Position numbers and translations under genes: made by a program
The notes under the pieces: generated by a model
What the model was told of the DNA's origin: nothing
What the model saw: only the letters and a program-made list of their open reading frames with translations
Database searches by the model: none
DNA from: an uncultured Gammaproteobacteria bacterium
Lineage (GTDB): Bacteria > Patescibacteriota > Microgenomatia > UBA1406 > HO2-37-13b
NCBI GenBank assembly: GCA_964612595.1
Contig: CAZTFB010000002.1
Span: 70,663-134,662 of the forward strand
DNA: 64,000 nucleotides
Direction of reading: 5' to 3'
In this document: one piece after another, positions 9,906 to 46,148 of the stretch
Numbering within the stretch: the first letter of the stretch is position 1
Layout of the letters: every line of letters begins with the position of its first letter

Positions 9906-10325
9906 ATGAAGACTCTTGGACTGTCAATAACTGCTATTTTCCTCCTGTTGTTTTTGGTTATAAATGTCTATGCGTCTCAACTGTTTCCTCCACTTTACTA
10001 TCGCGTGGTTGGCATACAAGACATCTCAGCAGCTGAAGATTTCTTGCGCTACATAAAAGGAACTCCGATGCATAAACAGCAATATGATTATTTTAACGAG
10101 AAATTTAACAATGGGCTTATTGAGGCACGATTGGCTGAAGAAGAAAAAAATGGCGCTTCAAAAGAGAAATATCGCACCATTCTGGAGAAAAATCCAAAGA
10201 GCCGCGATGCGCTTATTATGCTCGCGCTGTACGAACTACGCGGTGGAAACGAAGAAGAAGCTGCTCGCTATTATACCCAAGCCAAGCAAATCGACCCCTG
10301 GCTTAAAATTGAATCGCTGGAATAG
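9906..10325 (+). CDS. small secreted/anchored TPR-like protein
   Basis: N-terminal hydrophobic signal/anchor. The C-terminal part (ALIMLALYELRGGNEEEAARYYTQAKQIDP) looks like a TPR repeat. Confidence 0.4.
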   Translation: MKTLGLSITAIFLLLFLVINVYASQLFPPLYYRVVGIQDISAAEDFLRYIKGTPMHKQQYDYFNEKFNNGLIEARLAEEEKNGASKEKYRTILEKNPKSRDALIMLALYELRGGNEEEAARYYTQAKQIDPWLKIESLE

Positions 10326-10354
10326 AAGACCACAACCTGTCGAGGATCGTGCCC
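10326..10354 (+). repeat. imperfect hairpin element AAGACCACAACCTGTCGAGGATCGTGCCC
   Basis: 24/29 identical to 45578-45606. Both start immediately after a TAG stop. The left arm matches the perfect terminator hairpin at 19982-20018. Confidence 0.7.
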
Positions 10355-10360
10355 TTGTTT

Positions 10361-10399
10361 AGAAGAAAAGATCGAAGCCGGGCGGTTGTGCCGCCCGGC
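10361..10399 (-). terminator. rho-independent terminator of cassette ORF 1a
   Basis: Minus strand reads GCCGGGCGG-CACAA-CCGCCCGGC followed by TTCGATCTTTTCTTCT. Confidence 0.7.
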
Positions 10400-10426
10400 C
10401 TCTCTCGTTCCGCCGAGGCGCGGGGC

Positions 10427-10693
10427 TCAGTCTTGCGTCTCCAGCATGGGGAGATTGAATATCGTGTCGGCCCGAAGTTCGTATCCCTTGGCCATCTTCA
10501 CGACAGCCTCCAGATTGTCCGTCTCCGTGACGACGACGATCGCTTCCTTGACCGAGCTCGCTGCGACCCGCACGACGCCTTGCAGGCGCTGTACGGCCTG
10601 AGCAAAGGGACCGAATCGTTCCGAGATGTTGTTGAGGTTGGTCCCGGTCTTCAGGACGATGACCACGAATGGCATCATGCTGATGTTCAACAT
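10427..10693 (-). CDS. GC-rich cassette ORF 1a, small alpha/beta protein of unknown function (weak GYD-like pattern)
   Basis: 88 aa with strong GC3 bias, its own promoter and terminator. The MPFVVIVLKTG... pattern only loosely recalls GYD-domain proteins. Confidence 0.5.
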   Translation of the reverse strand: MLNISMMPFVVIVLKTGTNLNNISERFGPFAQAVQRLQGVVRVAASSVKEAIVVVTETDNLEAVVKMAKGYELRADTIFNLPMLETQD

Positions 10694-10789
10694 AGCGATT
10701 TTACCTGTGCCTTTCGGTTGAAACGAGAATTGTTGGGTGCTTTGTCAATCGAGTAATGCGCGAAACACGCACACTTGAAAGACAGGATC

Positions 10790-10818
10790 ATTATACTATA
10801 GGATAGCAAGGAAGTCAA
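10790..10818 (-). promoter_or_regulatory. sigma70-type promoter TTGACT-N17-TATAAT for cassette ORF 1a
   Basis: -35 at 10818-10813, exact 17-nt spacer, -10 at 10795-10790. Begins 9 nt after the stop of the RNase H fragment. Confidence 0.65.
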
Positions 10819-10827
10819 GTTCTGAAG

Positions 10828-10974
10828 CTATTTTCGCATCAATTCCGCAATATCAACCGCATCATTCACCAGCGCATCCGCAAGCTTATTCTTCTCCCGC
10901 AGAACGTGTGTATAGCTTACCGGAAGGCCCAATTCTTTTTCATACACTCTGATTTGATTAACGTATTCCTGAAT
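10828..10974 (-). pseudogene. duplicated 3' fragment of the RNase H gene
   Basis: 10851-10974 is 122/124 identical to 11531-11654. The fragment stays in frame and ends with a different tail (..NDAVDIAELMRK*). It has no 5' part. Confidence 0.85.
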
Positions 10975-10979
10975 TGGAA

Positions 10980-11007
10980 TAAGCCCAGGTCTTAAAAAGG
11001 TCGTGCC
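10980..11007 (+). repeat. 28-nt intergenic element, copy 3 (TAAGCCCAGGTCTTAAAAAGGTCGTGCC)
   Basis: 23/28 identical to 22450-22477 (reverse complement). Preceded by TGGAATA, as is the element at 10326. Confidence 0.7.
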
Positions 11008-11031
11008 TTTTGTACTTGAAAGAGTTGTGCG

Positions 11032-11064
11032 GCAACCGGTCCAACATTACGTCGGACCGGTTGC
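11032..11064 (-). terminator. perfect 11-bp stem-loop downstream of cassette ORF 1b
   Basis: GCAACCGGTCC-N11-GGACCGGTTGC, with a second 7-bp hairpin (CAGCCTG..CAGGCTG) closer to the stop. The T-tract is weak. Confidence 0.4.
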
Positions 11065-11154
11065 ACGCGGGTGGATCAAGATTCACGATTTCTTTAACAG
11101 CCTGGGTCTCATCTCAGGCTGACACGAGATCGCCTTGACTGCGCTCCTGAGACA

Positions 11155-11427
11155 TCATTTGGCTTTGGCAAATGACACCAGAAACATGAGGGTTGTGATG
11201 AATGTTAGTGCTAAGTGCACCAACCACTCGAGACTTCTTACTCCATGATCGGGCACACTCATGACTGCCTTGACTTGCCAACACAAGACTGCCGCCAAAA
11301 AGTACTGATACGAAGGTCGCAATCTTTCGACATCTTCGCCAGATACCGAGAAAACACCAGACAGAATTGCCAACGCCAGGAACATAAGTTCCATGAGTGG
11401 CAATAGCCACAACAGCATCTCACTCAT
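11155..11427 (-). CDS. GC-rich cassette ORF 1b, small hydrophobic membrane protein
   Basis: 90 aa from ATG 11427 (MSEMLLWLLPLMELMF...), with AAGGGG 7 nt upstream and about 3 hydrophobic segments. No recognisable family. Confidence 0.5.
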   Translation of the reverse strand: MSEMLLWLLPLMELMFLALAILSGVFSVSGEDVERLRPSYQYFLAAVLCWQVKAVMSVPDHGVRSLEWLVHLALTFITTLMFLVSFAKAK

Positions 11428-11470
11428 TGTTTTTCCCCTTGTGTCAAGTGCGTACAGGATGTTGGGTGCA

Positions 11471-11499
11471 ATTATACTCTTAACAGTAGAACTGGTCAA
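11471..11499 (-). promoter_or_regulatory. sigma70-type promoter TTGACC-N17-TATAAT for cassette ORF 1b
   Basis: -35 at 11499-11494 contains the RNase H TGA stop codon. Exact 17-nt spacer, -10 at 11476-11471. Confidence 0.65.
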
Positions 11500-11939
11500 G
11501 CTCGCGCTGCTTCTTTGAATAAACTTCCTATATCAACCGCATCATTTACGAGCGCATCCGCAAGCTTATTCTTCTCCCGCAGAACGTGTGTATAGCTTAC
11601 CGGAAGGCCCAATTCTTTTTCATACACTCTGATTTGATTAACGTATTCCTGAATATGAGGCTGTTTTATTTTGTAGGCACCCTTTAACTGCTGTACAACC
11701 AAAAGCGAATCGGCGTGCCACTCGACTAGATCAATCGAATATTGTGGCACAAGCACGTTAATAAGCAGTTCATAGGCCTTCATAACGGCCCGATATTCCG
11801 CAGTATTGTTTGTTTCAATGCCAATATCTTCGCGGTGCGCAAACAAGACCTGGTCTTGTTCATCATAAAACACAATGCCGATCGCGGCGGGCCCTGGATT
11901 TCCCTTTGAACCCCCATCTGTAAAAACTTTAAGTTTCAT
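11496..11939 (-). CDS. rnhA: ribonuclease HI-like protein
   Basis: 147 aa with type 1 RNase H acidic motifs: FTDGGSKGNPG, NNTAEYRA, HADSLLVV, KNKLADALVNDA. Confidence 0.75.
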   Translation of the reverse strand: MKLKVFTDGGSKGNPGPAAIGIVFYDEQDQVLFAHREDIGIETNNTAEYRAVMKAYELLINVLVPQYSIDLVEWHADSLLVVQQLKGAYKIKQPHIQEYVNQIRVYEKELGLPVSYTHVLREKNKLADALVNDAVDIGSLFKEAARA

Positions 11940-11944
11940 AAGGG

Positions 11945-12661
11945 TTAATTATAACGAGATGTTAATCTTTTAGTAACAAAGAATGCGAAGCCGTACCAGA
12001 GGCACCCAAAGCCATATTTTAGGCTTCGCAAAAAATTTATAGACGACATTTCGGGAAAATAGCGACATGGTGAGCTTATCTCCCCGATTCGATTTCCTGA
12101 GGCAAGAAGTTGAAGCAGCATTTGATTATCAAAAATAAAATCGTCGCTATTCACTTTATACTTTACGCTCTTGAGAGCCTTTCTCGTATAGGCACGAAAA
12201 CCTGTATGATATTCTGACAACTTCGCACCTGTCAGAATATTCTCAATAAAAGTTAGCACTCGATTTGAAATATATTTGTATAACGGCATACCGCCTCGCA
12301 GAGCCCCACCGGACAGAATGCGTGATCCAAGGACCACATCAAAATGCCCCGTCTGAAGCATTGCCACCATTGGCGTAATGAGCTCAGACGGATACTGATA
12401 ATCGGGATGAAGCATCACAACGATATCGGCGCCAGCCTTTAGTGCCGCGTCATAACACGTTTTTTGATTGGCGCCATATCCTTTATTCTTGTCATGCTGA
12501 ATAACGGTCAAGCCAAGCGCTGTAGCTATCTTTACCGATTCATCTGTACTACCATCATCGGTCATAATAATGTGTTTTTTGAATTGGCTTGGAATATCTT
12601 TGTAAGTTTTACGGATAGTCTTGGCTGTGTTGTATGCCGGCATTATTATGATGGTTTTCAT
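11945..12661 (-). CDS. glycosyltransferase family 2
   Basis: IIIMPAYNTAKTI ... DDGSTDES ... HPDYQYP motifs of GT-A fold GT2 enzymes. Confidence 0.8.
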   Translation of the reverse strand: MKTIIIMPAYNTAKTIRKTYKDIPSQFKKHIIMTDDGSTDESVKIATALGLTVIQHDKNKGYGANQKTCYDAALKAGADIVVMLHPDYQYPSELITPMVAMLQTGHFDVVLGSRILSGGALRGGMPLYKYISNRVLTFIENILTGAKLSEYHTGFRAYTRKALKSVKYKVNSDDFIFDNQMLLQLLASGNRIGEISSPCRYFPEMSSINFLRSLKYGFGCLWYGFAFFVTKRLTSRYN

Positions 12662-12662
12662 G

Positions 12663-13895: not shown

Positions 13896-13920
13896 TCTAC
13901 AATGATATCACAAGAGATGA

Positions 13921-13949
13921 GGCACGAACCTGACAGGACCTGGTCCTGC
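13921..13949 (-). repeat. hairpin element GCAGGACCAGGTCCTGTCAGGTTCGTGCC
   Basis: Lies 3 nt after the recombinase stop. Its 3' half CCTGTCAGGTTCGTGCC parallels CCTGTCGAGGATCGTGCC at 10336-10353. Confidence 0.6.
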
Positions 13950-13952
13950 AAT

Positions 13953-14795
13953 TTAAAGCTCGCCGAGCTTTTCTTTACGCTCGGTTTCTTGCTTTACAAG
14001 CTCCAGGTACTTTTCTGTAGAAGAGAGTCTTCGATGACCTACGATCTTTGAGATGTAGGAAATAGAAGCCCCGTTCATAAGCTGATAAGCAATAAATGTA
14101 TTGCGAAGATCCTGTACCTTCGCATTATCAATACCAACTTCGCGGAAACATCGTGTAATGATGCTTCGAATGTTTCGCACAAGAAGTTGTCGACCTGTTT
14201 TAGTGACAAAGAGGAAATCTGTCTCGCTATCATGGCGGGACTTGATATAACTCTCGACAGCCTTTTCAACGGCCTTATTCATCGGTATAAATCTATCGCT
14301 AATTTTGAGCCCTTCCTTCGTGATGTCACCAAGTTTAATTTCAGCAAGCTCTCCAATTCTTACTCCTGTTTGTAGCAAGAGCTCGATCATTGCGTATGTT
14401 CTTTTATCTGACTTCGAAAAGTCCCTTAATGCTCGATATTCGAGCTTAGAAAGTATGCGCGGTGGAGCCTGATTGTACTTTGGATGAGTTACCTCCAAAG
14501 AAGGATTCTGAGCGATAATTTGCTCCTGTTTCAGATAACGGAAAAAGGTTCTTATAGAGTTAAGCTTGCGCGAAGCGGATTTTTTTGTATATCCTTCACC
14601 AAGAAGCTTAGAGATAAAACCGTCAATGTCGTCTTTTTTGACTTCTTTGATGTCGGTCTTCTCAACTGACGCTATATATGCAATAAACTGCTCCAAGTCT
14701 TTTTTATAAGCCACAACAGTGTGCTTCGACTTGTCTTGTGCAGTCAGATGCTCTATAAATGATTGTACCAGTGTTCGTAAATCTGATGTTATCAT
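13953..14795 (-). CDS. tyrosine site-specific recombinase (XerC/XerD-like integrase family)
   Basis: 280 aa with an N-terminal SAM-like domain. The catalytic region has TGVRIGEL (Arg) and GHRRLSSTEKYLEL (H-x-x-R ... Y). Confidence 0.8.
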   Translation of the reverse strand: MITSDLRTLVQSFIEHLTAQDKSKHTVVAYKKDLEQFIAYIASVEKTDIKEVKKDDIDGFISKLLGEGYTKKSASRKLNSIRTFFRYLKQEQIIAQNPSLEVTHPKYNQAPPRILSKLEYRALRDFSKSDKRTYAMIELLLQTGVRIGELAEIKLGDITKEGLKISDRFIPMNKAVEKAVESYIKSRHDSETDFLFVTKTGRQLLVRNIRSIITRCFREVGIDNAKVQDLRNTFIAYQLMNGASISYISKIVGHRRLSSTEKYLELVKQETERKEKLGEL

Positions 14796-14859
14796 GAATG
14801 CCCTATAATATCACAAAGCGGATAATAATTCAAGCGCAAATTAATTATAATTAAATATT

Positions 14860-15198: not shown

Positions 15199-15370
15199 GA
15201 CCGTGTCTTGTTCTGCATCATGCCGAGCGGTATTCAACACTACCTCACATATTCTGTGCTTCCCTTCATTATTGTCATTGGTAGTTTGTTAACCTTCAGT
15301 AAGACCAATTGACCCTATCGTAAATGAAACATAGCGCAGATATACAAACGGGGCTGCAGGAATAAGTTTT

Positions 15371-16058: not shown

Positions 16059-16069
16059 TTTATGACAAA

Positions 16070-16822: not shown

Positions 16823-16831
16823 AATATACGC

Positions 16832-18611: not shown

Positions 18612-19994
18612 TTGTATTATAAAGGAATGACGCCTAAGCGCTTAATTGTACTCGTCTTTTTATTGATTATTACGCTCGCCTTTTACTTTAAATCGATGCT
18701 GTACATTGATCCTGACCTAGGATGGCAGCTAAAAACAGGTGAAATAATTCTTTCAAAGGGTTTTCCGCGTACAGATCCTTTCTCATATACTATGTCTCAT
18801 TTTGCGTTTGTTCCGCATTCGTGGCTGACGGATGTTGTTTTCCACCATGTGTTCCAGCTCGCTGGACTATCGGGACTCGCATTTGTTACTAGCATTGCTC
18901 TCACAATCACTGTAGTAGTTATTTGCGGGGTTATATGGCAAACATGGATGTTTGTACCCGCTCTGTTGGTTGCTGTGCATTTAATGCCATATGCAGGGAT
19001 GCGCCCACAAACGTTTAGCTGGCTTTTTTTTGCGCTTCTGCTTCGAGTGCTCGTTGATAAAAAAGCCGAACATGTCTATGGGCGCTATTTACCCATATTG
19101 CTTTTTGTGTGGGCTCAGCTTCATGGTGGGTTTTTAATTGGCATAGTGCTATTAGCCATCTGGGCGTTTTTTGACCTCAAAAAGCGCGCCTTAATAGTAT
19201 TGTTCGCCACAGTCGCAACACTTGTGAATCCCTATGGGATCGCGCTGTGGCGCGAAGCACTAATGACATTTTTCTCGCTATCCACGCGGGCAAGCGTCAA
19301 TGAGTGGTCGCCAACGCTTGCGCGCCTTGATCTACGTCTTGGGCTTGTTATGCTCTTGCCCACATTCCTTATCGTTCGCTACCCTCGCGCATACTCGCCA
19401 TTCTTTAAACTTACATATGTCATACTCTTTCTCACCATGCTTTCTTCAAGCAAACTATTTCCGTTTTGGCTTATCATGGCAGGCTATACAATGATCATAG
19501 GCTTAACTACTCTTGAAAAAAGTACTGTGCAGATCAAAGGTGCAGCTAAACGCCTCAATACACTTCTATATGTTCTTTTTCTTCTTATTGCAATTAATGC
19601 AGCCGTTCTCATCATATCAACGTTTAAAACCTACAAAACTCTGGATGAAGATGTGTATTACCCGAAAAATGCTGTAATTTTCCTAAAAACACATCCGCCC
19701 CAAGGTAATATATTTGCCCCCTTCGGCTGGGGCGGTTACCTCATATGGAAACTCCCAGAAAAGAAGGTCTTTATCAGTGGACATATGCCACATTGGGAGC
19801 ATATTCTTGAAGATTATATTAAGATAATCAAGCTGGAAAGCCCTTTTGAGAAAATCACCACATCCTATAATATCTCAACGGTGCTTGTTCAAAAAAATAA
19901 AACAAACTTTGCTGCATTGACTACTTATCTTAAGAAAAATGGCTGGAAAACGATTTATGAAGGTGGCGTATCGGAGATATTAATAAGACCGTAA
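18612..19994 (+). CDS. polytopic membrane protein (possible O-antigen-ligase/GT-C-like)
   Basis: 460 aa with more than 10 hydrophobic helices and a soluble C-terminal domain. Start uncertain (TTG 18612 or ATG 18627). Confidence 0.45.
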   Translation: MYYKGMTPKRLIVLVFLLIITLAFYFKSMLYIDPDLGWQLKTGEIILSKGFPRTDPFSYTMSHFAFVPHSWLTDVVFHHVFQLAGLSGLAFVTSIALTITVVVICGVIWQTWMFVPALLVAVHLMPYAGMRPQTFSWLFFALLLRVLVDKKAEHVYGRYLPILLFVWAQLHGGFLIGIVLLAIWAFFDLKKRALIVLFATVATLVNPYGIALWREALMTFFSLSTRASVNEWSPTLARLDLRLGLVMLLPTFLIVRYPRAYSPFFKLTYVILFLTMLSSSKLFPFWLIMAGYTMIIGLTTLEKSTVQIKGAAKRLNTLLYVLFLLIAINAAVLIISTFKTYKTLDEDVYYPKNAVIFLKTHPPQGNIFAPFGWGGYLIWKLPEKKVFISGHMPHWEHILEDYIKIIKLESPFEKITTSYNISTVLVQKNKTNFAALTTYLKKNGWKTIYEGGVSEILIRP

Positions 19995-20018
19995 CCTGGC
20001 ACAGGTTACGGTCTTATT
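19982..20018. terminator. bidirectional stem-loop terminator (17-bp perfect stem)
   Basis: AATAAGACCGTAACCTG-GCA-CAGGTTACGGTCTTATT followed by TT. Contains the stop codon of the upstream gene. Its left arm resembles the elements at 10326 and 45578. Confidence 0.75.
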
Positions 20019-25931: not shown

Positions 25932-28043
25932 ATGAAAGGCACCTACGTTCCACCGGAAGAGGGACAAGGCAATCCGATCGAACAATTTACGGTCAATCTG
26001 ACTGCCTTAGCAAAGAAAAACAAACTCGACCCTGTTGTGGGTCGAGATAATGAGGTGCGACGCTTAATACAAATATTATCGCGTCGCACGAAAAACAACC
26101 CTGTGTTGCTTGGTGACCCTGGTGTGGGAAAAACCGCCATTATTGAAGGCCTCGCCCAACGCATTGTCGCTGGCGATATCCCCAACACACTCAAGCATAA
26201 AGAACTTCTATCAATAGACCTAACAGGGCTCGTCGCAGGCGCAGCTTTTCGCGGTGAATTTGAACAGCGACTAAAAGGTCTTCTAACCGAGCTCGAAAAA
26301 GCAGAAGGAAAATACATTATTTTTATCGACGAGCTCCACACAATCGTAGGCGCTGGATCTGCCCAAGGCTCCGCAGACGCCGGCAACATTCTAAAACCCG
26401 CGCTCGCCCGCGGAACCCTACACGCCATCGGTGCAACGACCATTCGTGAATACCGCCAATATATTGAAAAGGATCCAGCGCTTGAGCGCCGATTTCAACC
26501 TGTTATGGTTGATGAGCCCTCACCCGAAGATACGCTCACTATTCTCCGTGGCATTAAAGAAAAATATGAAACACATCACGGAATCAAAATTTCTGACGAT
26601 GCACTTATCGCTGCGGTCGACCTCTCCACACGCTATATTACCGACCGCTTTTTACCAGACAAAGCAATTGACCTCATCGATGAGGCAGCAGCAGGCTCCA
26701 GAATTGAAATAGATTCGATGCCGACCTCGCTTGATGAGATAAAGCGCAAGAAAGTTCAACTCGACATTGAACTTGCGGCGCTCAAAAAAGAACAAAATGT
26801 CGAGGAGCGCCGCGCAAAACTTGAGGCGGAGCGCACAGAGCTCGATGCAACATTCAAAGAACTTGAAACAAAATGGGAAGAAGAAAAACGCATTATCAGC
26901 GAGCTCCAAAGCTATCGCCTCCAGCTTGACCAGCTTAAATCTGAGCTCGAAATTGCAGAGCGCGATGCTGAACTCGAAAAAGCCGCTGAGCTCAAGTACA
27001 GCAAAATTCCAGCACTTGAAAAGAAAGTTTCTGAACTTGAAAAAGAATGGCAAAAAAAACCAGAAGCAGATCGCCTTCTCAAAGAACGTGTTACTGAAGA
27101 AGACATTGCACGCATCGTATCTCGCTGGACAAACATTCCAGCACAACGCCTTCTTTCTACCGAGTCAGAAAAACTAGCTAAACTTGAAGATGAGCTCAAA
27201 AATAGAGTCGTCGGCCAAGATCATGCCCTAACAAGACTTGCCCAAGCAATTCGACGATCCCGTGTTGGTCTGAGCGATGAAAATCGCCCCATAGGTTCAT
27301 TTCTATTCTTGGGCCCAACAGGTGTCGGAAAAACTGAAACAGCAAAAGCCCTTGCTGAAGCCCTATTTAATGATGAAAAAGCCCTTATTCGCATTGATAT
27401 GTCTGAATATCAAGAACCCCATACAATCGCGCGCCTCATCGGGGCCCCACCAGGCTATGTGGGATATGATGAAGGAGGCCAGCTAACTGAGGCCGTGAGG
27501 AGAAAACCATACTCTGTTATCCTCTTTGACGAAGTGGAAAAGGCACACCCACAGGTGTTCAATACGTTTTTGCAGATTCTTGATGATGGAAGACTCACTG
27601 ATGGAAAGGGCCGTACGGTTAACTTTAAAAATACAGTACTTATTTTAACCTCTAACTTGGGCTCACAATCGAAAAATATAATGGAAGAAGTCCGTCGCTT
27701 CTTTAAGCCTGAGTTCATAAATCGACTTGATGGGATTGTAGAATTTAATGCACTCGATGAGAAAATTATGAGTAGTATTATTGAGCTTCAGCTCAAAGAA
27801 ACAGAGGCGCGCCTCGCAAAAAACAGCCTGCAGGCAACCTTTACCGATGCGCTCAAAAAACATCTCCTCGCGGTCGGGTTTGACGATATGTACGGCGCCC
27901 GCCCGCTCAAGCGCATGATAAACGAGCTCATTCTTGATGAAATTGCACTGATGATTGTTGAAGGAAAGGTTCATGAAAAAGACAAGCTAACTGTTGATTT
28001 TAAGAATAATCGCGTTCACATTGAAAAAACTACTATAAACTAA
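25932..28043 (+). CDS. clpB: ATP-dependent chaperone ClpB (lacking the canonical N-terminal domain)
   Basis: Two AAA+ modules ([16 protein letters not shown]), a long coiled-coil middle domain, and the [13 protein letters not shown] motif only about 45 aa from the proposed ATG start. Confidence 0.9.
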
Positions 28044-28054
28044 TCCTGCTGTGC

Positions 28055-28083
28055 TTGACTACGCTATTAATATAGCCTATAAT
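28055..28083 (+). promoter_or_regulatory. sigma70-type promoter TTGACT-N17-TATAAT for cassette ORF 2
   Basis: Begins 12 nt after the clpB stop. Followed by AAGGAGG and ATG 28124. Confidence 0.65.
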
Positions 28084-28123
28084 ATTACCTTCACCGACCC
28101 TGTTCTAGCCCAAGGAGGCAAGG

Positions 28124-28507
28124 ATGAGCAGCTCAAAGCCGGTACCGATCTTGGTCTTGCGCCAGGTCAGAATCGTGACCTGGCTGTCCGGAAGTACTGA
28201 GCCCAGGAGGGCTCGGGTCGAAGGCCATGCTGATGAACTTCTCGAGCTCCTGGGGCAATCCAATGATGAGCTCGGGAGCACCTCAGCGCTCGTGGTGCAG
28301 GTGTCGGCACATGTTGTGCGAGTTTTACTGCATGACGGCTCACCAGTTGCCCGGTTCTCGGTCGATACCGAGCAAGCCGGCGCGACAATCGTCTTCGTCG
28401 ACAGCAAGGGATGGCTCCAGAGCCTTCTTGCCATCGGCGCGGAATCGATCAACCCCGAGGACTGGCCAAACAGCTGGGTTCGGACGGCCTTCAAGGCCGA
28501 AGACTGA
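28124..28507 (+). CDS. GC-rich cassette ORF 2, unknown function
   Basis: 127 aa with AAGGAGG 5 nt upstream and strong GC3 bias in this frame. The opposite-strand ORFs look like GC-rich artefacts. No recognisable family. Confidence 0.55.
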   Translation: MSSSKPVPILVLRQVRIVTWLSGSTEPRRARVEGHADELLELLGQSNDELGSTSALVVQVSAHVVRVLLHDGSPVARFSVDTEQAGATIVFVDSKGWLQSLLAIGAESINPEDWPNSWVRTAFKAED

Positions 28508-28525
28508 CGACCTCAAGTCGTCCAT

Positions 28526-28565
28526 GGCCCCGGTCCGCTTCGGCGGATGCGGGGCCTTTCTCATT
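28526..28565 (+). terminator. rho-independent terminator of cassette ORF 2
   Basis: GGCCCCG-G-TCCGC-TTCG-GCGGA-TG-CGGGGCC followed by TTTCTCATT. Confidence 0.75.
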
Positions 28566-28604
28566 CCCCAAAAATTCCTCTTTACCTCCTAAAAACCTGC
28601 TATA

Positions 28605-28943
28605 ATGGATATTCCAATGACACCAAAAGACATAACCCAGGATCAATTCGAGCAAGAAGTCGTTCAACATAAAGGCGTCGTTTTCGTTGACTTCCACGCA
28701 GAATGGTGTGGACCATGCAAAATGACCGAGCCTATTATCGAAGATCTCGCCACAAATTCGAGTTTCAAAGACAAGGTTAAGTTCGTCAAAGTCGATGTTG
28801 ACAAAAACCAAGACCTAGCCGGACAATACAGTGTTTTTTCCATTCCTACGTTCATCACCTTCAAAGATGGCGAACCCGTCAACCAGTTCTCTGGCGCGCG
28901 CGATCGAGGAGGTTTCGAGGCAGAGCTCAATAAATTTGTGTAG
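28605..28943 (+). CDS. trxA: thioredoxin
   Basis: 112 aa with the WCGPC active site. Confidence 0.9.
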   Translation: MDIPMTPKDITQDQFEQEVVQHKGVVFVDFHAEWCGPCKMTEPIIEDLATNSSFKDKVKFVKVDVDKNQDLAGQYSVFSIPTFITFKDGEPVNQFSGARDRGGFEAELNKFV

Positions 28944-28947: not shown

Positions 28948-29382
28948 TTATCTTGCATCAAACATTCTGACTGCTTTCCCATGCGCAATCTTTAGCTTAA
29001 TATGTGCCTTTCGTAGAATAAATAAACAAAATTCCGCAAGCCAACGCACAGAGGTAGATATAGGATTTTTTAACCCTTGCATCACCTTATCATCACTTAT
29101 CGGCAACTTTACACTGTTATACGTAGTAAATTGAGAATGGCCCGTTGATGCAACCCCTTCTTCTTCTACTTCTTGGGGCACCTCAATCTTTTCAGGTCTA
29201 GGCTCAACATAATGTTTAACTTCCGGCTCAGGCTCATGTTCGGTTACCTCATGAATCTCGATATGATCTTTTGAGACTTCTGGGGGGCGCATGGGTGAGA
29301 TTTTTTCTGGATTCCCATAGCTGATTTGTTGCGCTTGTACGCTTTGAATAAGATCGGAAATATCGGTATAATTTTGGGGCAT
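28948..29382 (-). CDS. hypothetical protein (acidic Pro/Glu-rich centre)
   Basis: 144-aa ORF 18 nt downstream of the 418-aa orphan. No recognisable domain. Confidence 0.35.
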   Translation of the reverse strand: MPQNYTDISDLIQSVQAQQISYGNPEKISPMRPPEVSKDHIEIHEVTEHEPEPEVKHYVEPRPEKIEVPQEVEEEGVASTGHSQFTTYNSVKLPISDDKVMQGLKNPISTSVRWLAEFCLFILRKAHIKLKIAHGKAVRMFDAR

Positions 29383-29399: not shown

Positions 29400-30656
29400 T
29401 TACGCGGCTTTAGCGATAGGCTTCTTACTCCTGTCAATACTCGGCTTCCTTCCCGCGTCATAATCCCGCTGACATAACTCACATATAGCACATGGACCGA
29501 TTTTAACTTTTTTAGCTCCACATCCACCTTTTCCAAACTCGCGGCAATCCTTGTCATCCTCCCATTTTGATGTGTCCCTCCACGCTTCTCTATCAATCGC
29601 CTGTTCCCCAAAAACGCTGTACATTGCAGCCATATGCGGCGACATATCACCAAGCAGGCCGATATACATGTTTGATGACTGAGTATCACATACAAGACTC
29701 CCATAGAAGAGTGGGGCGTCGTGTTGTCCGTAGTATTGCGCAATGTACGAACCTATATCTATGAGATTGCCATCTACTACAGGTGCAGCCATTTTAGTTG
29801 CTGCTTCATCCTGCTCATCTCTTAAAAGCGTAGCCTGTTCAAAGAGATAGTCGCGTGCCTGCTTCGCTGCCCTCGTTATTTCTGCATATCGAAATGGAAC
29901 TTCCTGTTTATCGACAGTGGCTAACTCTGACATTAGTCCAATGAAATGTTGGACATACTGACCAAGGTCTTGGCGCACACGAGCGGCAAATGCTTCTGAG
30001 GCGTCAACCTTATCTTGAGTTAAACCAAGTAGTTCGTATATGCGGCCATGGTCTGCGGAGCCACTGAAAGCCAATGGCCGCACGAGCATTTCTTCTGTAG
30101 TTTCTGGGGCAGATAAGTTACCGCTAAAACCTGCTGATTGTTGCATCTGATCGTACTCTTTTTGAGCTTTTCTAAATCCAACATCGTCGTGTCGATGCAT
30201 GATGTTCGTTTGGATAATACGGAAGCTGCCGTCTATGTTCGGAATCTTGCGGAACGTAAAAGTAAAGCGACGATCACCGTAACCTTCTTTCGACGGAGAA
30301 GAAAGGACTACCATTGAAACATTCTGGTCAAGTAACATTTTATATGCCTCTTGATAACCTATAACTTCATAGTGTTCTCGTGACCAATGTCCGTACTTTT
30401 CAATAGTCCGTTGCCACGATGATTGAAGATCGAGCCCTTGCATAACCCACGCTCCGTCTTGTCGTAGTTCACCCTCTAGCTCACTAAAGGGAACATAGCC
30501 TGCATGTTCATTAAGGAGGCCGATCATCTGTCCATCAAGAAACTGACTGTGGAAAGATTCGGGAAGCTCTCGAAGTCGAGCGACTTCTAAAGGAATGTCG
30601 TAAAGGCGATCCAACGAATGCCCCTCTTGGGGCTGTAATCTTTCAGCTTGTTGCAT
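29400..30656 (-). CDS. orphan protein with C-terminal cysteine cluster (zinc-ribbon-like)
   Basis: 418 aa. The C-terminus CREFGKGGCGAKKVKIGPCAICELC has a CxxxxxxC...CxxC pattern. Composition is Q/E/A/G/R-rich, and hand-counted GC of two 60-nt lines is 48-53%, above the flanks. Confidence 0.5.
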   Translation of the reverse strand: MQQAERLQPQEGHSLDRLYDIPLEVARLRELPESFHSQFLDGQMIGLLNEHAGYVPFSELEGELRQDGAWVMQGLDLQSSWQRTIEKYGHWSREHYEVIGYQEAYKMLLDQNVSMVVLSSPSKEGYGDRRFTFTFRKIPNIDGSFRIIQTNIMHRHDDVGFRKAQKEYDQMQQSAGFSGNLSAPETTEEMLVRPLAFSGSADHGRIYELLGLTQDKVDASEAFAARVRQDLGQYVQHFIGLMSELATVDKQEVPFRYAEITRAAKQARDYLFEQATLLRDEQDEAATKMAAPVVDGNLIDIGSYIAQYYGQHDAPLFYGSLVCDTQSSNMYIGLLGDMSPHMAAMYSVFGEQAIDREAWRDTSKWEDDKDCREFGKGGCGAKKVKIGPCAICELCQRDYDAGRKPSIDRSKKPIAKAA

Positions 30657-30749
30657 ATCCCTGCGCGGGGTAGGATTTGGAAGGTAGTCGGACTATAACC
30701 GTTGCGGCACAGCTCAGGAATTTCACCTGGATTCCCCGTTCCAAAACCG

Positions 30750-40755: not shown

Positions 40756-40781
40756 TACCTGTAATATTTTCTTCATTTCAT

Positions 40782-42050: not shown

Positions 42051-42552
42051 GGAGGCATTTGTCTTTTGTCCTCGTTGTGGACAAAAACTAACGGCGCATT
42101 TCGGCGGGTTTCCTGTATGTAAACATTGTGGGCTTCACTTTTATAACAATCCACGACCCACCACAACTGTAATAATTTTCGATGCCAATCAACACATCTT
42201 ACTAACAAAACGTGGCATTGAACCCTTTAAGGGCTTCTGGGACCTTCCGGGAGGGTTTGTTGTTGTAAACGAAAGTATTACCGCATCAGCAAAAAGAGAA
42301 ATCAGGGAAGAGCTTTCTGTGGAAATCGATATAGATCATATCTTTGGTGCCATACCCGATGAGTACGAATATCAAGGGATTATCTACCCTACACTATCAA
42401 CCATTATGTCAGCACATATTATCTCAGGAAACTTGAAGGCACAAGATGATGTTGCGGATTTTGCATTTATTTCTCCGCGAGACGCTCTAAAGAAAGACTT
42501 GGCATTTATGAGTATACCCACAGCGATAAAGATAGCCACCGGCATTGAATAA
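42040..42552 (+). CDS. NUDIX hydrolase with N-terminal zinc ribbon
   Basis: CPRCG...CKHCG ribbon and a NUDIX box GGFVVVNESITASAKREIREELS. Confidence 0.75.
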   Translation: MHIEEAFVFCPRCGQKLTAHFGGFPVCKHCGLHFYNNPRPTTTVIIFDANQHILLTKRGIEPFKGFWDLPGGFVVVNESITASAKREIREELSVEIDIDHIFGAIPDEYEYQGIIYPTLSTIMSAHIISGNLKAQDDVADFAFISPRDALKKDLAFMSIPTAIKIATGIE

Positions 42553-42582
42553 TTCCCGCATAATTACCGATTTATTAACGCA
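42553..42582. repeat. 30-bp perfect direct repeat, copy 1
   Basis: TTCCCGCATAATTACCGATTTATTAACGCA is identical to 43851-43880. Contains the stop codon of the oxidoreductase gene. Confidence 0.95.
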
Positions 42583-43859: not shown

Positions 43860-43880
43860 AATTACCGATTTATTAACGCA
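43851..43880. repeat. 30-bp perfect direct repeat, copy 2
   Basis: Identical to 42553-42582. Contains the start codon of the oxidoreductase gene. Confidence 0.95.
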
Positions 43881-43887
43881 GAGATCT

Positions 43888-44421
43888 TCACAACAGCGCA
43901 AGACAGTGTGGGACCCATGGTGCATATATATTAGATGCTAAAAACTTTGGGTCTTTAACTTTTTCAACAGGAACAACAGAATACCCATACGCAAATTCCA
44001 AATTTGGTTCAGGAATATGATCGATTTCTACGGTATAAAAATAACAAACTTCATGTTCACCGAAATCACTATTTGAATCGTCGGCTTGATAATATGCAGA
44101 ACCTTTATTTATGAGTGGAGAAGTTAGTTGGTCCTTTTTAACATGCCATTCACGCTCGAAAGCTCGATACACCGCGTCTTCGGTCGGCTCAATCTCATCC
44201 CCAATAAAAAGTGGATGAGATGAGCAGGTTAAATCAAATACAGAATCGAATAACACATGTTTTCTATGCTGAAGTATGACTTGACCATCAAATAAAAGGC
44301 ATGCAGTAAATGCTCTGTGGAGAATTTGTTTTTCGTGCGCTTCCCAACGCTCTATTTTTCCAATAATGTTATCTTCTTTGTCGACTTGAGCAAGATATTG
44401 TTTTTCAGCATAATAGTCCAT
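43888..44421 (-). CDS. idi: isopentenyl-diphosphate delta-isomerase type 1-like (NUDIX fold)
   Basis: GKIERWEAHEKQILHRAFTACLLFDGQVILQHR pattern of type 1 IDI. Confidence 0.6.
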   Translation of the reverse strand: MDYYAEKQYLAQVDKEDNIIGKIERWEAHEKQILHRAFTACLLFDGQVILQHRKHVLFDSVFDLTCSSHPLFIGDEIEPTEDAVYRAFEREWHVKKDQLTSPLINKGSAYYQADDSNSDFGEHEVCYFYTVEIDHIPEPNLEFAYGYSVVPVEKVKDPKFLASNIYAPWVPHCLALL

Positions 44422-44464
44422 GTCTGTATTCTAACATAGCGGCTACTTCAGTTATAATAGGGTC

Positions 44465-45577
44465 ATGAACAGAGACTTTCCTGTAAAACTAGCTCTCATT
44501 TCTGTATTGCTCTTTGAATTATTTCTGCTGTTTGGTAATCCGGTTAAAGCTCAGGTTGTATGTTCAAATAGGGATGATTGCCAGAATAAAATAAAAGAGT
44601 ATGAGTCAAAGCTCAGCGCCACGCGAGAAGCTAAAGGAAATTTAACCTCACAAATTCAGCTCACAAACACCAAGGTTGAGCTTGCACAAGTACGCATACA
44701 AAAAACCCAACACGATATTGAGGCAACTCAGAATGAAATTGCCCAATTAACTGGAAAGATTGAGCAGCTCAACACCACACTAGATCATTTGAGCGAAATT
44801 CTGCTGCAAAAAATTGTCGAAGGGTATAAAAACAAGGAAGCGAGCATTCTCGATATTCTGCTCTCCCCAGAGGCATCAACCCTCACAAATCAACTCAAAT
44901 ATATCCAGATAGCTCAAGAAAACGATCGTCTTCTTGCACTTCGTACTCAACAAGTAAAAGTAAATTTCTCTGAACAAAAAACGCTTCGCGAAGATAAAAA
45001 GGTTGATCTTGAAAAGCTCGAGAAAGATTTAGAGGCACAGAGAGTAGAGTTGAAGAACCAGATTGCTCAAAAAAACGCGCTTCTTGAGCAAACAAAGAGT
45101 GACGAAAAAAAATACCAACAATTGTTGAGTCAGGCATTGGCAGAATTTCAGGCGGTAAACAAAGCTATTGAGACAGGACAAAAAGTGGGTGAGGTTAAAA
45201 AGGGTGATCCAATAGCACTGATTGGCAATACAGGATATCCTCATTGCTCAACTGGAGCACACCTGCATCTTGAGGTGCGCAAGGGTGGCACATGGACAGA
45301 TCCAGGCGCATATTTGGGAAGCAGTTGGGATTGGCCAATTAGTCAACCTATTGAAATTACACAGGGGTATGGAGTGACGCCATGGTCATGGCGTTACTCA
45401 TATAGCGGAGGCATACATACAGGGTACGATATGGTGAGTAGGAGCAGTGAGGTGATACGTGCAGTAGCTGACGGCACCCTCTACTCATCCTCGCAGAATT
45501 GTAGCGGCTCGATCATAAAGATTAAATACATTGACCACGGGAACGACCTCATGAGCTTCTATCTGCATGTGCAATAG
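44465..45577 (+). CDS. M23-family peptidoglycan endopeptidase with N-terminal coiled coil
   Basis: Signal peptide, about 230 aa of coiled coil, and the GNTGYPHCSTGAHLHLEV M23 motif. Confidence 0.8.
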   Translation: MNRDFPVKLALISVLLFELFLLFGNPVKAQVVCSNRDDCQNKIKEYESKLSATREAKGNLTSQIQLTNTKVELAQVRIQKTQHDIEATQNEIAQLTGKIEQLNTTLDHLSEILLQKIVEGYKNKEASILDILLSPEASTLTNQLKYIQIAQENDRLLALRTQQVKVNFSEQKTLREDKKVDLEKLEKDLEAQRVELKNQIAQKNALLEQTKSDEKKYQQLLSQALAEFQAVNKAIETGQKVGEVKKGDPIALIGNTGYPHCSTGAHLHLEVRKGGTWTDPGAYLGSSWDWPISQPIEITQGYGVTPWSWRYSYSGGIHTGYDMVSRSSEVIRAVADGTLYSSSQNCSGSIIKIKYIDHGNDLMSFYLHVQ

Positions 45578-45606
45578 AAGACCGCAACCTCACGAGGTTC
45601 GTGGCC
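45578..45606 (+). repeat. imperfect hairpin element AAGACCGCAACCTCACGAGGTTCGTGGCC
   Basis: 24/29 identical to 10326-10354. Begins right after the TAG stop of the M23 gene. Confidence 0.7.
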
Positions 45607-45699
45607 TAATGAGAATGCGCCCTTCGATTATGAGCCGTAGCCCACAATCTCCAGGCGCTTATCCTCGCACAGGCAAGAGCTCAGGCCTCGACCGTCATG

Positions 45700-45972
45700 T
45701 CAGAATCCGCCAAGAATGAGCGTGTCGGGCATCGGCCCCCTGCAGACCCGTTGGGTCGTGAACGTTGCCTTAACCCACCCTCGGCCCGGATACTCCACGA
45801 GGATAGAGCATTCGCCGTTCGCTTCTTTTTGGAAGCATTGCGAGTAGAACCGCTCAAAGTCTTCGTTGCCGTTTGGGTCGCTAATCGTCACGTCGACCAG
45901 GCCACCATTGGGCCCGCTGGACCACCAAACGTTTCCAGCACGACAGACAAACGGATTCGACCGTGTGTACAT
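45700..45972 (-). CDS. GC-rich cassette ORF 3, unknown function
   Basis: 90 aa with GGAGG 6 nt upstream, its own promoter, and 4 Cys. No recognisable family. The plus-strand ORF 45697-46071 is judged an artefact. Confidence 0.5.
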   Translation of the reverse strand: MYTRSNPFVCRAGNVWWSSGPNGGLVDVTISDPNGNEDFERFYSQCFQKEANGECSILVEYPGRGWVKATFTTQRVCRGPMPDTLILGGF

Positions 45973-46035
45973 CGAACTACCTCCATCACGAGCTCGCCGG
46001 ATGCGAAAAAAGTGCGCGTATGCACTTTGGTGCGA

Positions 46036-46064
46036 ATTATACTACCAGAGAGCTCTGAGATCAA
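46036..46064 (-). promoter_or_regulatory. sigma70-type promoter TTGATC-N17-TATAAT for cassette ORF 3
   Basis: -35 at 46064-46059, exact 17-nt spacer, -10 at 46041-46036. Lies 85 nt downstream of the tRNA-Ala 3' end. Confidence 0.6.
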
Positions 46065-46148
46065 TTTCTAGGCTGGGCAAGGGTCTGAAAAAAGTTAAAT
46101 CGTGTTTGGATTTGTGAGACGCTCTATATTACCCCCGAGGTTGTTGTG

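What the first reader, a model, noticed from the sequence alone, without database searches (positions are those of the whole stretch)
10318..46148. Four self-contained GC-rich single-gene cassettes, each just downstream of the 3' end of a housekeeping gene
The cassettes lie at about 10326-10850, 10975-11500, 28044-28604 and 45578-46148.

Shared grammar:
- Each is about 0.5 kb, co-oriented with a host gene, and starts 0-90 nt after that gene's 3' end. The host genes are the RNase H fragment, the intact RNase H, clpB and tRNA-Ala(GGC).
- Each carries a near-consensus promoter of identical architecture: TTGACT, TTGACC, TTGACT or TTGATC, then exactly 17 nt, then TATAAT.
- Each has a Shine-Dalgarno site (AGGT, AAGGGG, AAGGAGG, GGAGG).
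- Each encodes one 88-127 aa ORF with strong GC3 bias that I cannot assign to a family.
- The first and third end in a clear GC-stem terminator with a T-run. The second has only GC stem-loops with a weak T-tract, and in the fourth I could identify no separate terminator.
- Three of the four end in a related hairpin box (..AGG[A/T]TCGTG[C/G]CC or AAGGTCGTGCC).

Hand counts of 60-nt lines give 53-67% GC inside the cassettes versus 33-45% in the flanks. Several native genes here instead use TGNTATAAT-N6-start leaderless promoters.

No integrase or transposase lies inside any cassette. Integron cassettes normally lack promoters, and IS elements or MITEs do not look like this, so I cannot name an established element class.

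Candidate explanations are all inference:
- Cargo mobilised in trans by the Y1 transposase (6916) or the Xer-like recombinase (13953).
- Flexible islets exchanged by homologous recombination through conserved flanks.
- Genes captured from a high-GC donor, such as the host of an episymbiont.
Basis: partly seen in the sequence, partly recalled or inferred. Interest (0 to 1): 0.85.

Follow-up and report, generated by a model that had tools for sequence, protein, structure and literature searches.

The report
Swappable GC-rich mini-gene cassettes
A tiny-genome Microgenomates (CPR) bacterium carries small, self-contained GC-rich genes in fixed gaps between housekeeping genes, and even strains of one species hold different versions, so these gaps look like exchangeable slots for accessory genes of unknown, probably conflict-related, function.

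Summary
The four units are real. Each has a near-consensus sigma-70 promoter, a Shine-Dalgarno site and one 88-127 aa ORF. C1 and C3 also have clear terminators. C1, C3 and C4 are the three strongest GC outliers in the window; C2 is only marginally GC-rich.

They are not RNA genes, assembly chimeras, integron cassettes or IS/MITE elements.

In five relatives of Microgenomates OLB23, the gap between RNase H and a TPR gene always holds one or two such units. They encode a clade-restricted ferredoxin-like protein family (S) and/or small membrane proteins (M). Alleles are anciently diverged but all GC-rich.

A same-species strain has flanks 100% and 98.6% identical to the window but a different unit, changed from the -35 box to about 20 nt inside the TPR gene. 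That is replacement of a whole unit by homologous recombination.

C3 is a vertically inherited unit that is losing GC. C2 is a second slot allele joined in tandem through a 125-nt RNase H repeat.

The "end box" is a hairpin family found after stop codons, not a cassette end.

Closest concept: phage morons, here in the chromosome. The protein function and the source of the GC-rich gene pool remain unknown.

The parts
10326..10818 (-). Cassette C1 (S class). Promoter TTGACT-17-TATAAT at 10790-10818, leader at 10694-10789, ORF at 10427..10693 (88 aa, predicted ferredoxin-like fold), terminator hairpin at 10374-10402.
   Evidence: Independent Logan contigs from several runs are 100% identical across it.
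10323..10354 (+). Post-stop hairpin box TAGAAGACCACAACCTGTCGAGGATCGTGCCC. It begins at the TAG stop of the TPR gene (9906..10325) and is terminator-like on the cassette strand.
10829..10974 (-). RNase H 3' fragment that keeps the ancestral C-terminus ..DIAELMRK*. Positions 10850-10974 are one copy of a 125-nt direct repeat (98% identical).
10975..11529 (-). Cassette C2 segment (M class).
- It supplies a new RNase H C-terminus (GSLFKEAARA*).
- Promoter at 11471-11499, overlapping the RNase H stop codon.
- ORF at 11155..11427 (90 aa, 2 TM-like segments).
- 14-bp hairpin at 11032-11064.
- Degenerate box plus a remnant of the TPR 3' end (GAATTGGAATAA) at about 10975-11010.
   Evidence: Logan contig L002 spans 11242-10324 at 100% identity.
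11496..11939 (-). Intact RNase H gene. Positions 11530-11654 are the second copy of the 125-nt repeat.
28055..28556 (+). Cassette C3. Promoter at 28055-28083, SD AAGGAGG, ORF at 28124..28507 (127 aa), terminator at 28526-28556 with a UUCG loop that is invariant in three lineages.
45578..46064 (-). Cassette C4. Promoter at 46036-46064, leader hairpin, SD GGAGG, ORF at 45700..45972 (90 aa, orphan), structured 3' UTR at 45578-45699.
   Evidence: Logan contigs are 100% identical across it.
45575..45606 (+). Post-stop hairpin box TAGAAGACCGCAACCTCACGAGGTTCGTGGCC at the TAG stop of the M23 peptidase gene (44465..45577).
46148..46222 (-). tRNA-Ala(GGC), located upstream of C4.
19985..20015 (.). Perfect 17-bp hairpin of the same box family (AAGACCGTAACCTG..CAGGTTACGGTCTT) at the stop of gene 18612..19994. 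No cassette is present here.

Best explanation
The four features are independent, moron-like micro-transcription units. Each has a strong sigma-70 promoter, a structured leader, a Shine-Dalgarno site, one small ORF and a 3' hairpin. They sit in hypervariable intergenic slots of the chromosome of a Microgenomates (CPR) bacterium related to OLB23; a relative has a complete chromosome of about 0.94 Mb.

**Shown**
- The RNase H/TPR slot holds one or two such GC-rich units in every relative examined.
- The units encode members of a clade-restricted soluble family (S; the window's C1 member is predicted to have a ferredoxin-like fold) and/or small membrane proteins (M).
- S alleles are anciently diverged: roughly 10-47% aa identity depending on the alignment, with synonymous sites saturated.
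- Whole units, from the -35 box to about 20 nt inside the downstream TPR gene, are replaced between strains of one species while the flanks stay 98.6-100% identical. This is allelic replacement by homologous recombination through core-gene flanks.
- RecA is encoded in the window.
- C2 is a second slot allele joined in tandem. It brought its own RNase H C-terminus and a remnant of the TPR 3' end, and it is bounded by a 125-nt RNase H repeat.
- C3 is an older unit inherited vertically with its neighbours, and it is measurably losing GC.

**Inferred**
- DNA enters by natural transformation.
- The GC-rich codon and amino-acid usage reflects a separate accessory gene pool that evolved in, or is replenished from, an unsampled reservoir of about 60-65% GC.
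- The products act in conflict, for example phage exclusion or immunity, because they are small, strongly and autonomously expressed, strain-variable and held as old polymorphisms.
For: **Anatomy and statistics:**

**Protein-coding, not RNA**
- C3 differences by codon position run 3 > 1 > 2, with no indels across three lineages.
- S-family members match at E of about 1e-11.
- Rfam gives no hit even at E <= 1.

**Real, not chimeric**
- Independent contigs are 100% identical across the cassettes.

**Slot conserved, contents replaced**
- L008, L009, L010 and L060 have flanks 75-88% nt identical to the window.
- Their slot DNA is GC-rich but not alignable to the window's.

**Same-species swap**
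- L140 is 100% identical to the window up to TTGACTTC, and 98.6% identical over 1680 nt from the TPR stop codon onward.
- Within that stretch the last ~20 nt of the TPR gene carry several differences, which places the right-hand breakpoint about 20 nt inside the gene.
- The unit between these points is different.

**Ancient alleles**
- The fraction of identical codons at conserved residues is 0.33-0.67, against a random expectation of 0.34-0.47. For pairs with at least 20 comparable residues it is 0.39-0.56 against 0.41-0.47.
- RNase H is 85-87% aa identical across the same genomes.

**No ongoing hypermutation**
- Contigs carrying the same allele from different samples are 99.9-100% identical.

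**Foreign-type composition**
- Third-position C/G is 0.40/0.33 in cassettes against 0.21/0.19 in native genes.
- Ala is 12% against 7.5%, and Lys 2.9% against 8%.

**C3 inheritance and GC decay**
- C3 is syntenic and 72% aa identical in L003 and L004.
- Strong-to-weak (GC-to-AT) changes number 69 against 33 weak-to-strong. Native flanks show 141 against 196. Fisher p = 5e-6.
- A stationarity simulation gives P of about 0.001.

**C2 history:**

**RecA present:**
Against: - No function could be assigned. There are no family hits, and the C1 model shows only a generic fold match (pLDDT 68; Foldseek E >= 0.008). The conflict role is pure inference.
- The GC-rich reservoir was not found. No homologues turned up in phage records or viral contigs. 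None turned up in 5.8 billion or 1.84 billion protein sets either, apart from the same slot of the same clade.
- If alleles have long resided in genomes of about 42% GC, their GC3 of 0.67-0.85 needs a maintaining force that this model does not supply.
- Swapping is demonstrated only for the RNase H/TPR slot.
- C4 has no comparative data. C3 is conserved rather than swapped in the two relatives seen.
- M-class proteins are not demonstrably homologous to each other.
Confidence: 0.62

Rival explanations
1. Each cassette was captured independently and recently from a high-GC cellular donor, such as the host of the episymbiont, by illegitimate or site-directed insertion.
For: - Codon and amino-acid usage resemble a genome of about 60-65% GC.
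- C3 is losing GC, as expected for an ameliorating import.
- HGT into Patescibacteria is documented in general (PMC12455944).
Against: - No homologue of C1 or C4 was found in 5.8 billion clustered proteins.
- phmmer of C1 against 1.84 billion representatives finds S relatives only in the same slot of the same clade.
- The units carry promoters and leaders with the same core sequence (CCTATAGTATAAT) as those in the clade relatives, and these parts have ordinary GC.
- C3 is inherited with its neighbours at the same divergence as the flanks.
Confidence: 0.15
2. The units are native, clade-specific genes. Their GC-rich composition is maintained in place by selection (for example mRNA stability or expression level) or by a locally GC-biased process, with diversifying selection on the proteins.
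For: - Every deeply diverged S allele is GC3-rich (0.67-0.85), although synonymous sites are saturated.
- The family is restricted to this slot.
- All units have strong promoters.
Against: - C3 is not at compositional equilibrium and drifts towards AT.
- The G- and C-ending codon pattern, together with the shift to more Ala and less Lys, looks like mutational background rather than translational selection.
- There is no excess of variants in cassettes among near-clonal samples.
- Variable DNA extends about 15-25 nt beyond the ORF on both sides.
Confidence: 0.15
3. The cassettes are non-autonomous mobile elements moved in trans by the Y1 (IS200-like) transposase at 6916 or the Xer-like recombinase at 13953, or they are integron-type cassettes.
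For: - Y1_Tnp and Phage_integrase domains occur within 4 kb of slot 1.
- C1 and C4 share a hairpin box.
- A 125-nt direct repeat flanks C2.
Against: - The box abuts the stop codons of neighbouring genes and also occurs without cassettes.
- Cassettes at different sites share no left end.
- C3 and C4 have no flanking direct repeats.
- The Y1 gene is itself a variable insertion, absent from L009. The Xer gene is a conserved core gene.
- The cassettes carry their own promoters, unlike typical integron cassettes.
- No IntI, attI or attC was found.
- The swap breakpoints lie inside homologous flanks.
Confidence: 0.04
4. The GC-rich segments are structured non-coding RNA genes or assembly chimeras rather than protein genes.
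For: - GC-rich islands in AT-rich genomes are often RNA genes.
- The 3' regions are strongly structured.
Against: - Rfam gives no match at gathering score or at E <= 1.
- The codon-position pattern and the absence of indels support coding.
- S proteins are conserved while synonymous sites are saturated.
- Each unit has an SD plus a start codon.
- Independent contigs from several sequencing runs are identical.
Confidence: 0.03

Closest known systems
Phage morons (for example HK97 gene 15). Definition taken from PMC3594210.
   Same: - An independent transcription unit with its own promoter and terminator.
- A single small ORF.
- GC content different from the neighbouring genes.
- Placement between two otherwise adjacent genes.
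- Many morons encode small membrane proteins that exclude phages. This point is from my own knowledge plus PMC3594210.
   Different: - The units lie between housekeeping chromosomal genes (RNase H, clpB/trx, tRNA-Ala/M23), not in a prophage.
- The slot is occupied in all relatives, with alternative alleles, rather than the unit being simply present or absent.
- No phage homologues were found.
Replacement-type flexible genomic islands or islets, and balanced polymorphic loci exchanged through conserved flanks (for example capsule or O-antigen loci, pherotype and bacteriocin-immunity loci). From established knowledge.
   Same: - Anciently diverged alleles sit at one chromosomal position.
- Flanks are near-identical within a species.
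- The breakpoints lie inside the flanking core genes.
   Different: - The units are only about 0.5 kb and hold a single gene.
- Each carries a consensus promoter and a terminator.
- Composition is uniformly GC-rich in a genome of about 42% GC.
- The protein families are unknown.
Integron gene cassettes.
   Same: - Small, mostly single-gene units occur in tandem at a fixed site.
- A tyrosine recombinase gene lies in the neighbourhood.
   Different: - No IntI, attI or attC was found.
- The units carry their own promoters.
- The shared hairpin is not specific to cassettes.
IS200/IS605-derived hairpin elements (PATEs) and REP/RAYT systems.
   Same: - Hairpin motifs sit just after stop codons.
- A Y1 transposase gene is present.
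   Different: - The hairpin occurs at one end only and also away from cassettes.
- The cassettes lack conserved paired ends.
- The hairpin was not found flanking the Y1 gene.

Membership tests
Phage moron | Autonomous unit: own promoter, ORF and terminator. | tested here: met
   Promoters match 10-11 of 12 consensus positions. Terminator hairpins are clear at C1 and C3 and weaker at C2 and C4.
Phage moron | GC content differs from the neighbouring genes. | tested here: met
   C1, C3 and C4 have z > 4. C2 is marginal.
Phage moron | Located within a phage or prophage genome. | tested here: not met
   The neighbours are RNase H, a TPR protein, a TraG-like ATPase, clpB, thioredoxin, tRNA-Ala and an M23 peptidase. 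There is no phage similarity.
Integron cassette | attC recombination site at the cassette end, with IntI, attI and Pc nearby. | tested here: not met
   Pfam gives only generic Phage_integrase and SAM-like domain matches for the one nearby tyrosine recombinase. That gene is a core gene 86-88% nt identical in relatives. I read it as Xer-like rather than IntI, but no IntI-specific feature was tested. The shared hairpin abuts stop codons and also occurs without cassettes.
Integron cassette | Cassettes are usually promoterless and expressed from Pc. | tested here: not met
   Every unit has its own consensus promoter.
IS200/IS605 or PATE-type element | Conserved subterminal hairpins at both ends, shared by copies at different sites. 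| tested here: not met
   The left ends of C1, C3 and C4 are unrelated. The box occurs at one end only and also away from cassettes.
Integrative island targeting a tRNA or a gene 3' end | An integrase within the element, and direct repeats (att) duplicating the target 3' end. | tested here: not met
   No integrase lies in any unit. C3 and C4 have no flanking repeats, and there is no tRNA-Ala duplication. C2 has a 125-nt repeat but no recombinase.
Replacement-type flexible islet (allelic replacement by homologous recombination) | Same chromosomal site, near-identical flanks within a species, non-homologous or deeply diverged content. | tested here: met
   Window against L140: flanks are 100% and 98.6% identical, and the unit differs. 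S alleles have saturated synonymous sites. This was shown for slot 1 only.
Diversity-generating retroelement target | A reverse transcriptase plus a template/variable repeat pair. | tested here: not met
   No RVT domain was found among the roughly 40 larger ORFs scanned. No cassette-sized repeats are present. Cassettes are stable among samples.
Known structured RNA (Rfam) | Match to a covariance model. | tested here: not met
   No match.

The most novel reading that the evidence does not exclude
Ultra-small Microgenomates may maintain dedicated chromosomal expression slots fed from a distinct GC-rich pool of conflict genes. That composition would either be actively maintained or be supplied by an unsampled reservoir. 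Such a reservoir could be a CPR-specific mobile element. It could also be genes adapted to function in, or derived from, a high-GC host. This would be a new kind of diversity system for episymbionts that lack classical defence islands.
Probability: 0.18. Interest if true: 0.8.

Novelty: new variant of a known kind. Interest (0 to 1): 0.6.

Why it matters
CPR/Patescibacteria have minimal genomes and few recognisable defence or accessory systems. Here, 0.5-kb autonomous genes form old, trans-species polymorphisms at fixed sites and are swapped between strains. This points to where strain-level adaptation, probably against phages or competitors or in host interaction, is encoded in these organisms.

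The persistent GC3 of 0.7-0.87 in anciently diverged alleles inside genomes of about 42% GC, with no detectable donor, is a concrete compositional puzzle. It is testable: it bears on amelioration, on hidden gene reservoirs and on how HGT works in episymbionts.

The consensus promoters and compact terminators could also serve as parts for genetic tools in CPR bacteria.

Tried and rejected
- **RNA-gene hypothesis:** Rfam at gathering score and at E <= 1 gave nothing in any cassette.
- **Family assignment:** Pfam, PADLOC, PHROGs, NCBIfam and PDB sequence profiles gave nothing significant.
- **Structure:**
  - The C3 model was unusable (pLDDT 36).
  - The C1 model (pLDDT 68) gave only generic ferredoxin-fold hits.
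- **LysM lead:** multi-repeat LysM proteins scored against C1 in phmmer. An S-family profile against those repeats gave only 18% hhalign probability, and Pfam LysM did not hit. Rejected as a repeat-summed artefact.
- **Phage reservoir:**
  - tblastn against phage records found nothing.
  - The C3 profile and the leader and terminator DNA patterns found nothing in IMG/VR.
  - The promoter pattern hit one phage family that carries no GC-rich cargo.
  - The S alignment was too divergent for the search for related loci.
- **att-like repeats:** none at C3 or C4.
- **Exact-protein look-ups:** C3, thioredoxin and the intact RNase H were not on record.
- **Ongoing hypermutation:** rejected, because same-allele contigs from different samples are 99.9-100% identical.
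- **Literature:** no paper describing this phenomenon was found.

Full report
**1. Checking the observation**

- Composition. The window has 0.422 GC, and 300-nt windows have an sd of 0.042. Only three places exceed z = 4:
  - 10121-10830 (maximum 0.623)
  - 27999-28740 (maximum 0.627)
  - 45383-46112 (maximum 0.593)

  These are cassettes C1, C3 and C4. C2 (10975-11500) has only 0.479 GC.
- ORFs. They are 10427..10693(-) 88 aa, 11155..11427(-) 90 aa, 28124..28507(+) 127 aa and 45700..45972(-) 90 aa. Their GC3 values are 0.79, 0.54, 0.70 and 0.68, against 0.40-0.50 in seven native genes.
- Promoters. TTGA-N19-TATAAT occurs five times in 64 kb, with 0.26 expected. Four of the five are the cassette promoters. 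The consensus scan scores them at 10-11 of 12 positions with 17-nt spacers.
- 3' ends.
  - C1 and C3 have strong hairpin terminators.
  - C2 has a 14-bp hairpin with a weak T-tract.
  - C4 has a highly structured 3' UTR (-58 kcal/mol, z = -4.2) but no canonical terminator.
- Conclusion. The exceptions are that C2 is not a clear GC outlier and that the end box is not what it seemed (section 5).

**2. Not RNA genes, not chimeras**

- Rfam finds only three tRNAs and an AdoCbl-II riboswitch in the window. It finds nothing in the cassettes even at E <= 1.
- Independent Logan contigs from several sequencing runs are 100% identical across C1, across the junction from C2 through the RNase H fragment to C1, and across C4.
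- C3 has two homologues at 72% aa identity.
  - One (P0001) lies on L003, a syntenic contig 73% nt identical to the window over 10 kb.
  - The other (P0002) lies on L004.
  - All three copies keep the same layout of promoter, SD, ORF and terminator, and all are GC-rich.
  - They have no indels, and differences by codon position run 3 > 1 > 2 (for example 28/22/46).
  - C3 is therefore a protein gene inherited together with its neighbours.

**3. The RNase H/TPR slot in relatives**

- Five close relatives have flanks 75-88% nt identical to the window, and where the whole RNase H gene could be aligned (L008-L010) it is 85-87% aa identical. They are:
  - L008
  - L009 (Microgenomates bacterium OLB23)
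  - L010 (OZ246401.1, a 938-kb chromosome)
  - L060
  - L061
- In each one whose contig spans the slot (L061 breaks off just after the first promoter), the DNA between the RNase H stop and the TPR stop is GC-rich (up to 0.77 per 100 nt). It cannot be aligned to the window's C1 or C2.
- The slot holds one or two units. Each unit has:
  - a TTGAC.-17-TA.AAT promoter, often with the core CCTATAGTATAAT
  - a leader hairpin
  - an SD
  - an ORF
  - a GC-rich terminator
- The ORFs fall into two classes.
  - S: soluble, about 90 aa, homologous to C1 (BLASTP E about 1e-11).
  - M: membrane proteins of 81-114 aa with 1-3 TM-like segments, like C2, but not demonstrably homologous to each other.
- Their GC3 is 0.52-0.87.
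- phmmer of C1 against 1.84 billion representative proteins found only three further true relatives (P0009, P0010, P0013). All lie in this same slot.

**4. Direct evidence for swapping**

- L140 (with L141 and L142, from three other sequencing runs) belongs to the same species as the window.
  - It is 100% identical for 130 nt, up to and including TTGACTTC of the -35 box.
  - It is 98.6% identical over 1680 nt from the TPR stop codon onward. Within that stretch the last ~20 nt of TPR carry several differences.
  - Everything between is different: the promoter spacer, the leader, the S allele (36% aa identity) and the 3' region.
- This is replacement of a whole transcription unit by homologous recombination in the flanking core genes. 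RecA is encoded at 60067.
- The alleles are old.
  - At residues conserved between S alleles, the fraction of identical codons is 0.33-0.67. It is 0.39-0.56 for pairs with at least 20 comparable residues.
  - The random expectation is 0.34-0.47 (0.41-0.47 for those pairs), so the observed values are about chance level.
  - The C3 orthologues show 0.54-0.66.
- The alleles are also stable. Contigs with the same allele from different samples are 99.9-100% identical. In-place hypermutation is therefore rejected.
- Modules recombine.
  - L060's second unit shares 84% of its promoter and leader, and 89% of its terminator and box, with the window's C1. The segment between, from the SD to about 25 nt past the stop, is unalignable, and the proteins are 23% identical.
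  - One leader type drives an M gene in L008 but S genes in L010, L140 and L143.

**5. C2, the RNase H fragment and the box**

- Relatives' RNase H proteins end ..DI(A/P/E)(E/K)L(M/L)(R/Q)K*. That is the C-terminus of the window's fragment, not of its intact gene.
- The intact gene ends GSLFKEAARA*, encoded by the C2 segment.
- A 125-nt direct repeat, 98% identical, brackets that segment (10850-10974 and 11530-11654).
- The segment ends with a degenerate box and GAATTGGAATAA, which reads as the last codons of a TPR gene (read directly from the sequence).
- C2 is therefore best read as a complete M-only slot allele, like the one in L009, from a close relative and joined in tandem. This step is inference.
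- The 32-nt box occurs at 10323 and 45575, with 0 expected.
  - It starts at the TAG stop of the convergent TPR and M23 genes.
  - Related hairpins follow the stops of gene 18612..19994 (a perfect 17-bp stem, -24.9 kcal/mol) and of the Xer gene.
  - It scores as terminator-like on the cassette strand.
  - It is a family of post-stop, probably bidirectional, terminator hairpins. It is not a cassette end.

**6. Composition**

- Fourteen pooled cassette ORFs have third-position frequencies of C 0.40, G 0.33, A 0.12 and T 0.15. Native genes have 0.21, 0.19, 0.28 and 0.32.
- Amino-acid usage shifts in the same direction: Ala 12.1% against 7.5%, and Lys 2.9% against 8.0%. This is the profile of a genome of about 60-65% GC.
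- C3 is out of equilibrium.
  - Polarised changes are 69 strong-to-weak (GC to AT) against 33 weak-to-strong.
  - Native flanking genes show 141 against 196 (Fisher p = 5e-6).
  - A stationarity simulation shows parsimony bias gives a ratio of only 1.14-1.2, so P is about 0.001.
- C3's GC richness is therefore a decaying legacy.
- The S alleles are GC3-rich although anciently diverged. They must either have evolved in a GC-rich reservoir and been imported, or be held GC-rich by an unknown force.
- No reservoir was found among phage records or viral contigs, and none in the protein databases.

**7. Mobile-element models**

- The Y1_Tnp gene at 6916..7503 is an IS200-like insertion of about 690 nt. 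It is absent from L009 and present in L010.
- The Xer-like gene is a conserved core gene.
- No reverse transcriptase or integron integrase was found among the roughly 40 larger ORFs scanned.
- C3 and C4 have no flanking direct repeats, and the tRNA-Ala 3' end is not duplicated.
- Transposition, integron capture and tRNA-targeted integration are therefore not supported.

**8. Function**

- C1 is predicted as a beta-alpha-beta-beta-alpha-beta ferredoxin-like fold (pLDDT 68). It has only generic structural matches.
- An apparent LysM similarity was tested and rejected.
- By analogy with phage morons, I infer a conflict-related role such as phage exclusion or immunity. [quoted passage not shown] The strain-level, balanced-polymorphism pattern points the same way. 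Confidence in this role is low.

**9. Verdict**

- This is a real and unusual feature. It is best described as chromosomal, moron-like, swappable mini-gene units in hypervariable slots of a Microgenomates clade.
- The genetic behaviour, allelic replacement through homologous flanks, is shown for one slot.
- The origin of the GC-rich gene pool and the function of the proteins remain open.

Noticed in passing
window 30674-30747 (-): An AdoCbl-II (B12) riboswitch (50.8 bits, E = 2e-9) lies directly upstream of a 418-aa ORF with no Pfam family (29400..30656). It is downstream of the genes for a Cob_adeno_trans-like protein, a class II-type ribonucleotide reductase and NrdR. The ORF may be an unrecognised B12-related transporter or binding protein.
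   Followed up: no
window 6823-7512 (Y1_Tnp ORF 6916..7503, +): An IS200-like insertion of about 690 nt sits between two core genes. It is absent at the syntenic site in L009 (OLB23) and present at about 75% identity in L010.
   Followed up: partly
L008 6923-7005; L010 6880-6963; L140 151-232; L143 166-252: A nearly invariant two-tier, 14-bp leader hairpin (GUUUCUGUCCGCGCGCUCGUCGUGCGAUAACAGGAAC) is shared by cassettes in four genomes, although it precedes different ORFs (an M gene in L008, S genes elsewhere). It has no Rfam match. It may be a regulatory or stabilising 5' element.
   Followed up: partly
window 11027-11033 (-); slot coordinates L008 979, L009 535, L010 929: The motif GCCGCAC(A) sits immediately at the 3' base of the terminator hairpin in four cassettes from four genomes. 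That is 4 hits in 6.8 kb against about 0.7 expected. Its meaning is unknown.
   Followed up: partly
L003 1-690: Upstream of its C3 orthologue, the related contig carries another GC-rich unit (0.52-0.55 GC). It contains a partial ORF and a CxxC...CxxC zinc-ribbon-like ORF that is split by a frameshift, followed by a terminator. Then comes an AT-rich spacer with a repeated ~20-nt motif (ACG.GTAGTACTACATATCCA). The clpB/trx slot is therefore also variable.
   Followed up: partly
L057 11007-11036; L058 770-799; L059 522-551 (IMG/VR contigs): One phage family with 0.41 GC carries the promoter TTGACAACTAGGTG..TCCTATAGTATAAT, which has the same extended -10 context as the slot promoters. It precedes a structural-looking gene. 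These may be phages of this bacterial clade.
   Followed up: partly
window 29344-29372 (+): This is the fifth TTGA-N19-TATAAT match in the window. It lies antisense within the 5' end of ORF 28948..29382(-) and points into the 3' end of ORF 29400..30656(-). It could be an antisense promoter or a chance match.
   Followed up: no
window 50784-53386; cumulative GC skew minimum near 35-39 kb: dnaA and dnaN are in the window, so the region lies near the replication origin. The cumulative GC-skew minimum is about 12-15 kb away from dnaA.
   Followed up: no
L008 (CAZTOA010000033.1) and L010 (OZ246401.1): Both public records are titled 'uncultured Gammaproteobacteria bacterium'. Across the region compared they are syntenic with, and 75-88% nt identical to, this Microgenomates-like window, as is Microgenomates OLB23. 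The taxonomic labels are probably wrong.
   Followed up: no
window 28598-28620 (+): The thioredoxin gene is preceded by TGCTATAAT, and the first plausible ATG (28617) lies about 11 nt after the -10 element. TGNTATAAT occurs 7 times in the window, against 3.3 expected.
   Followed up: partly
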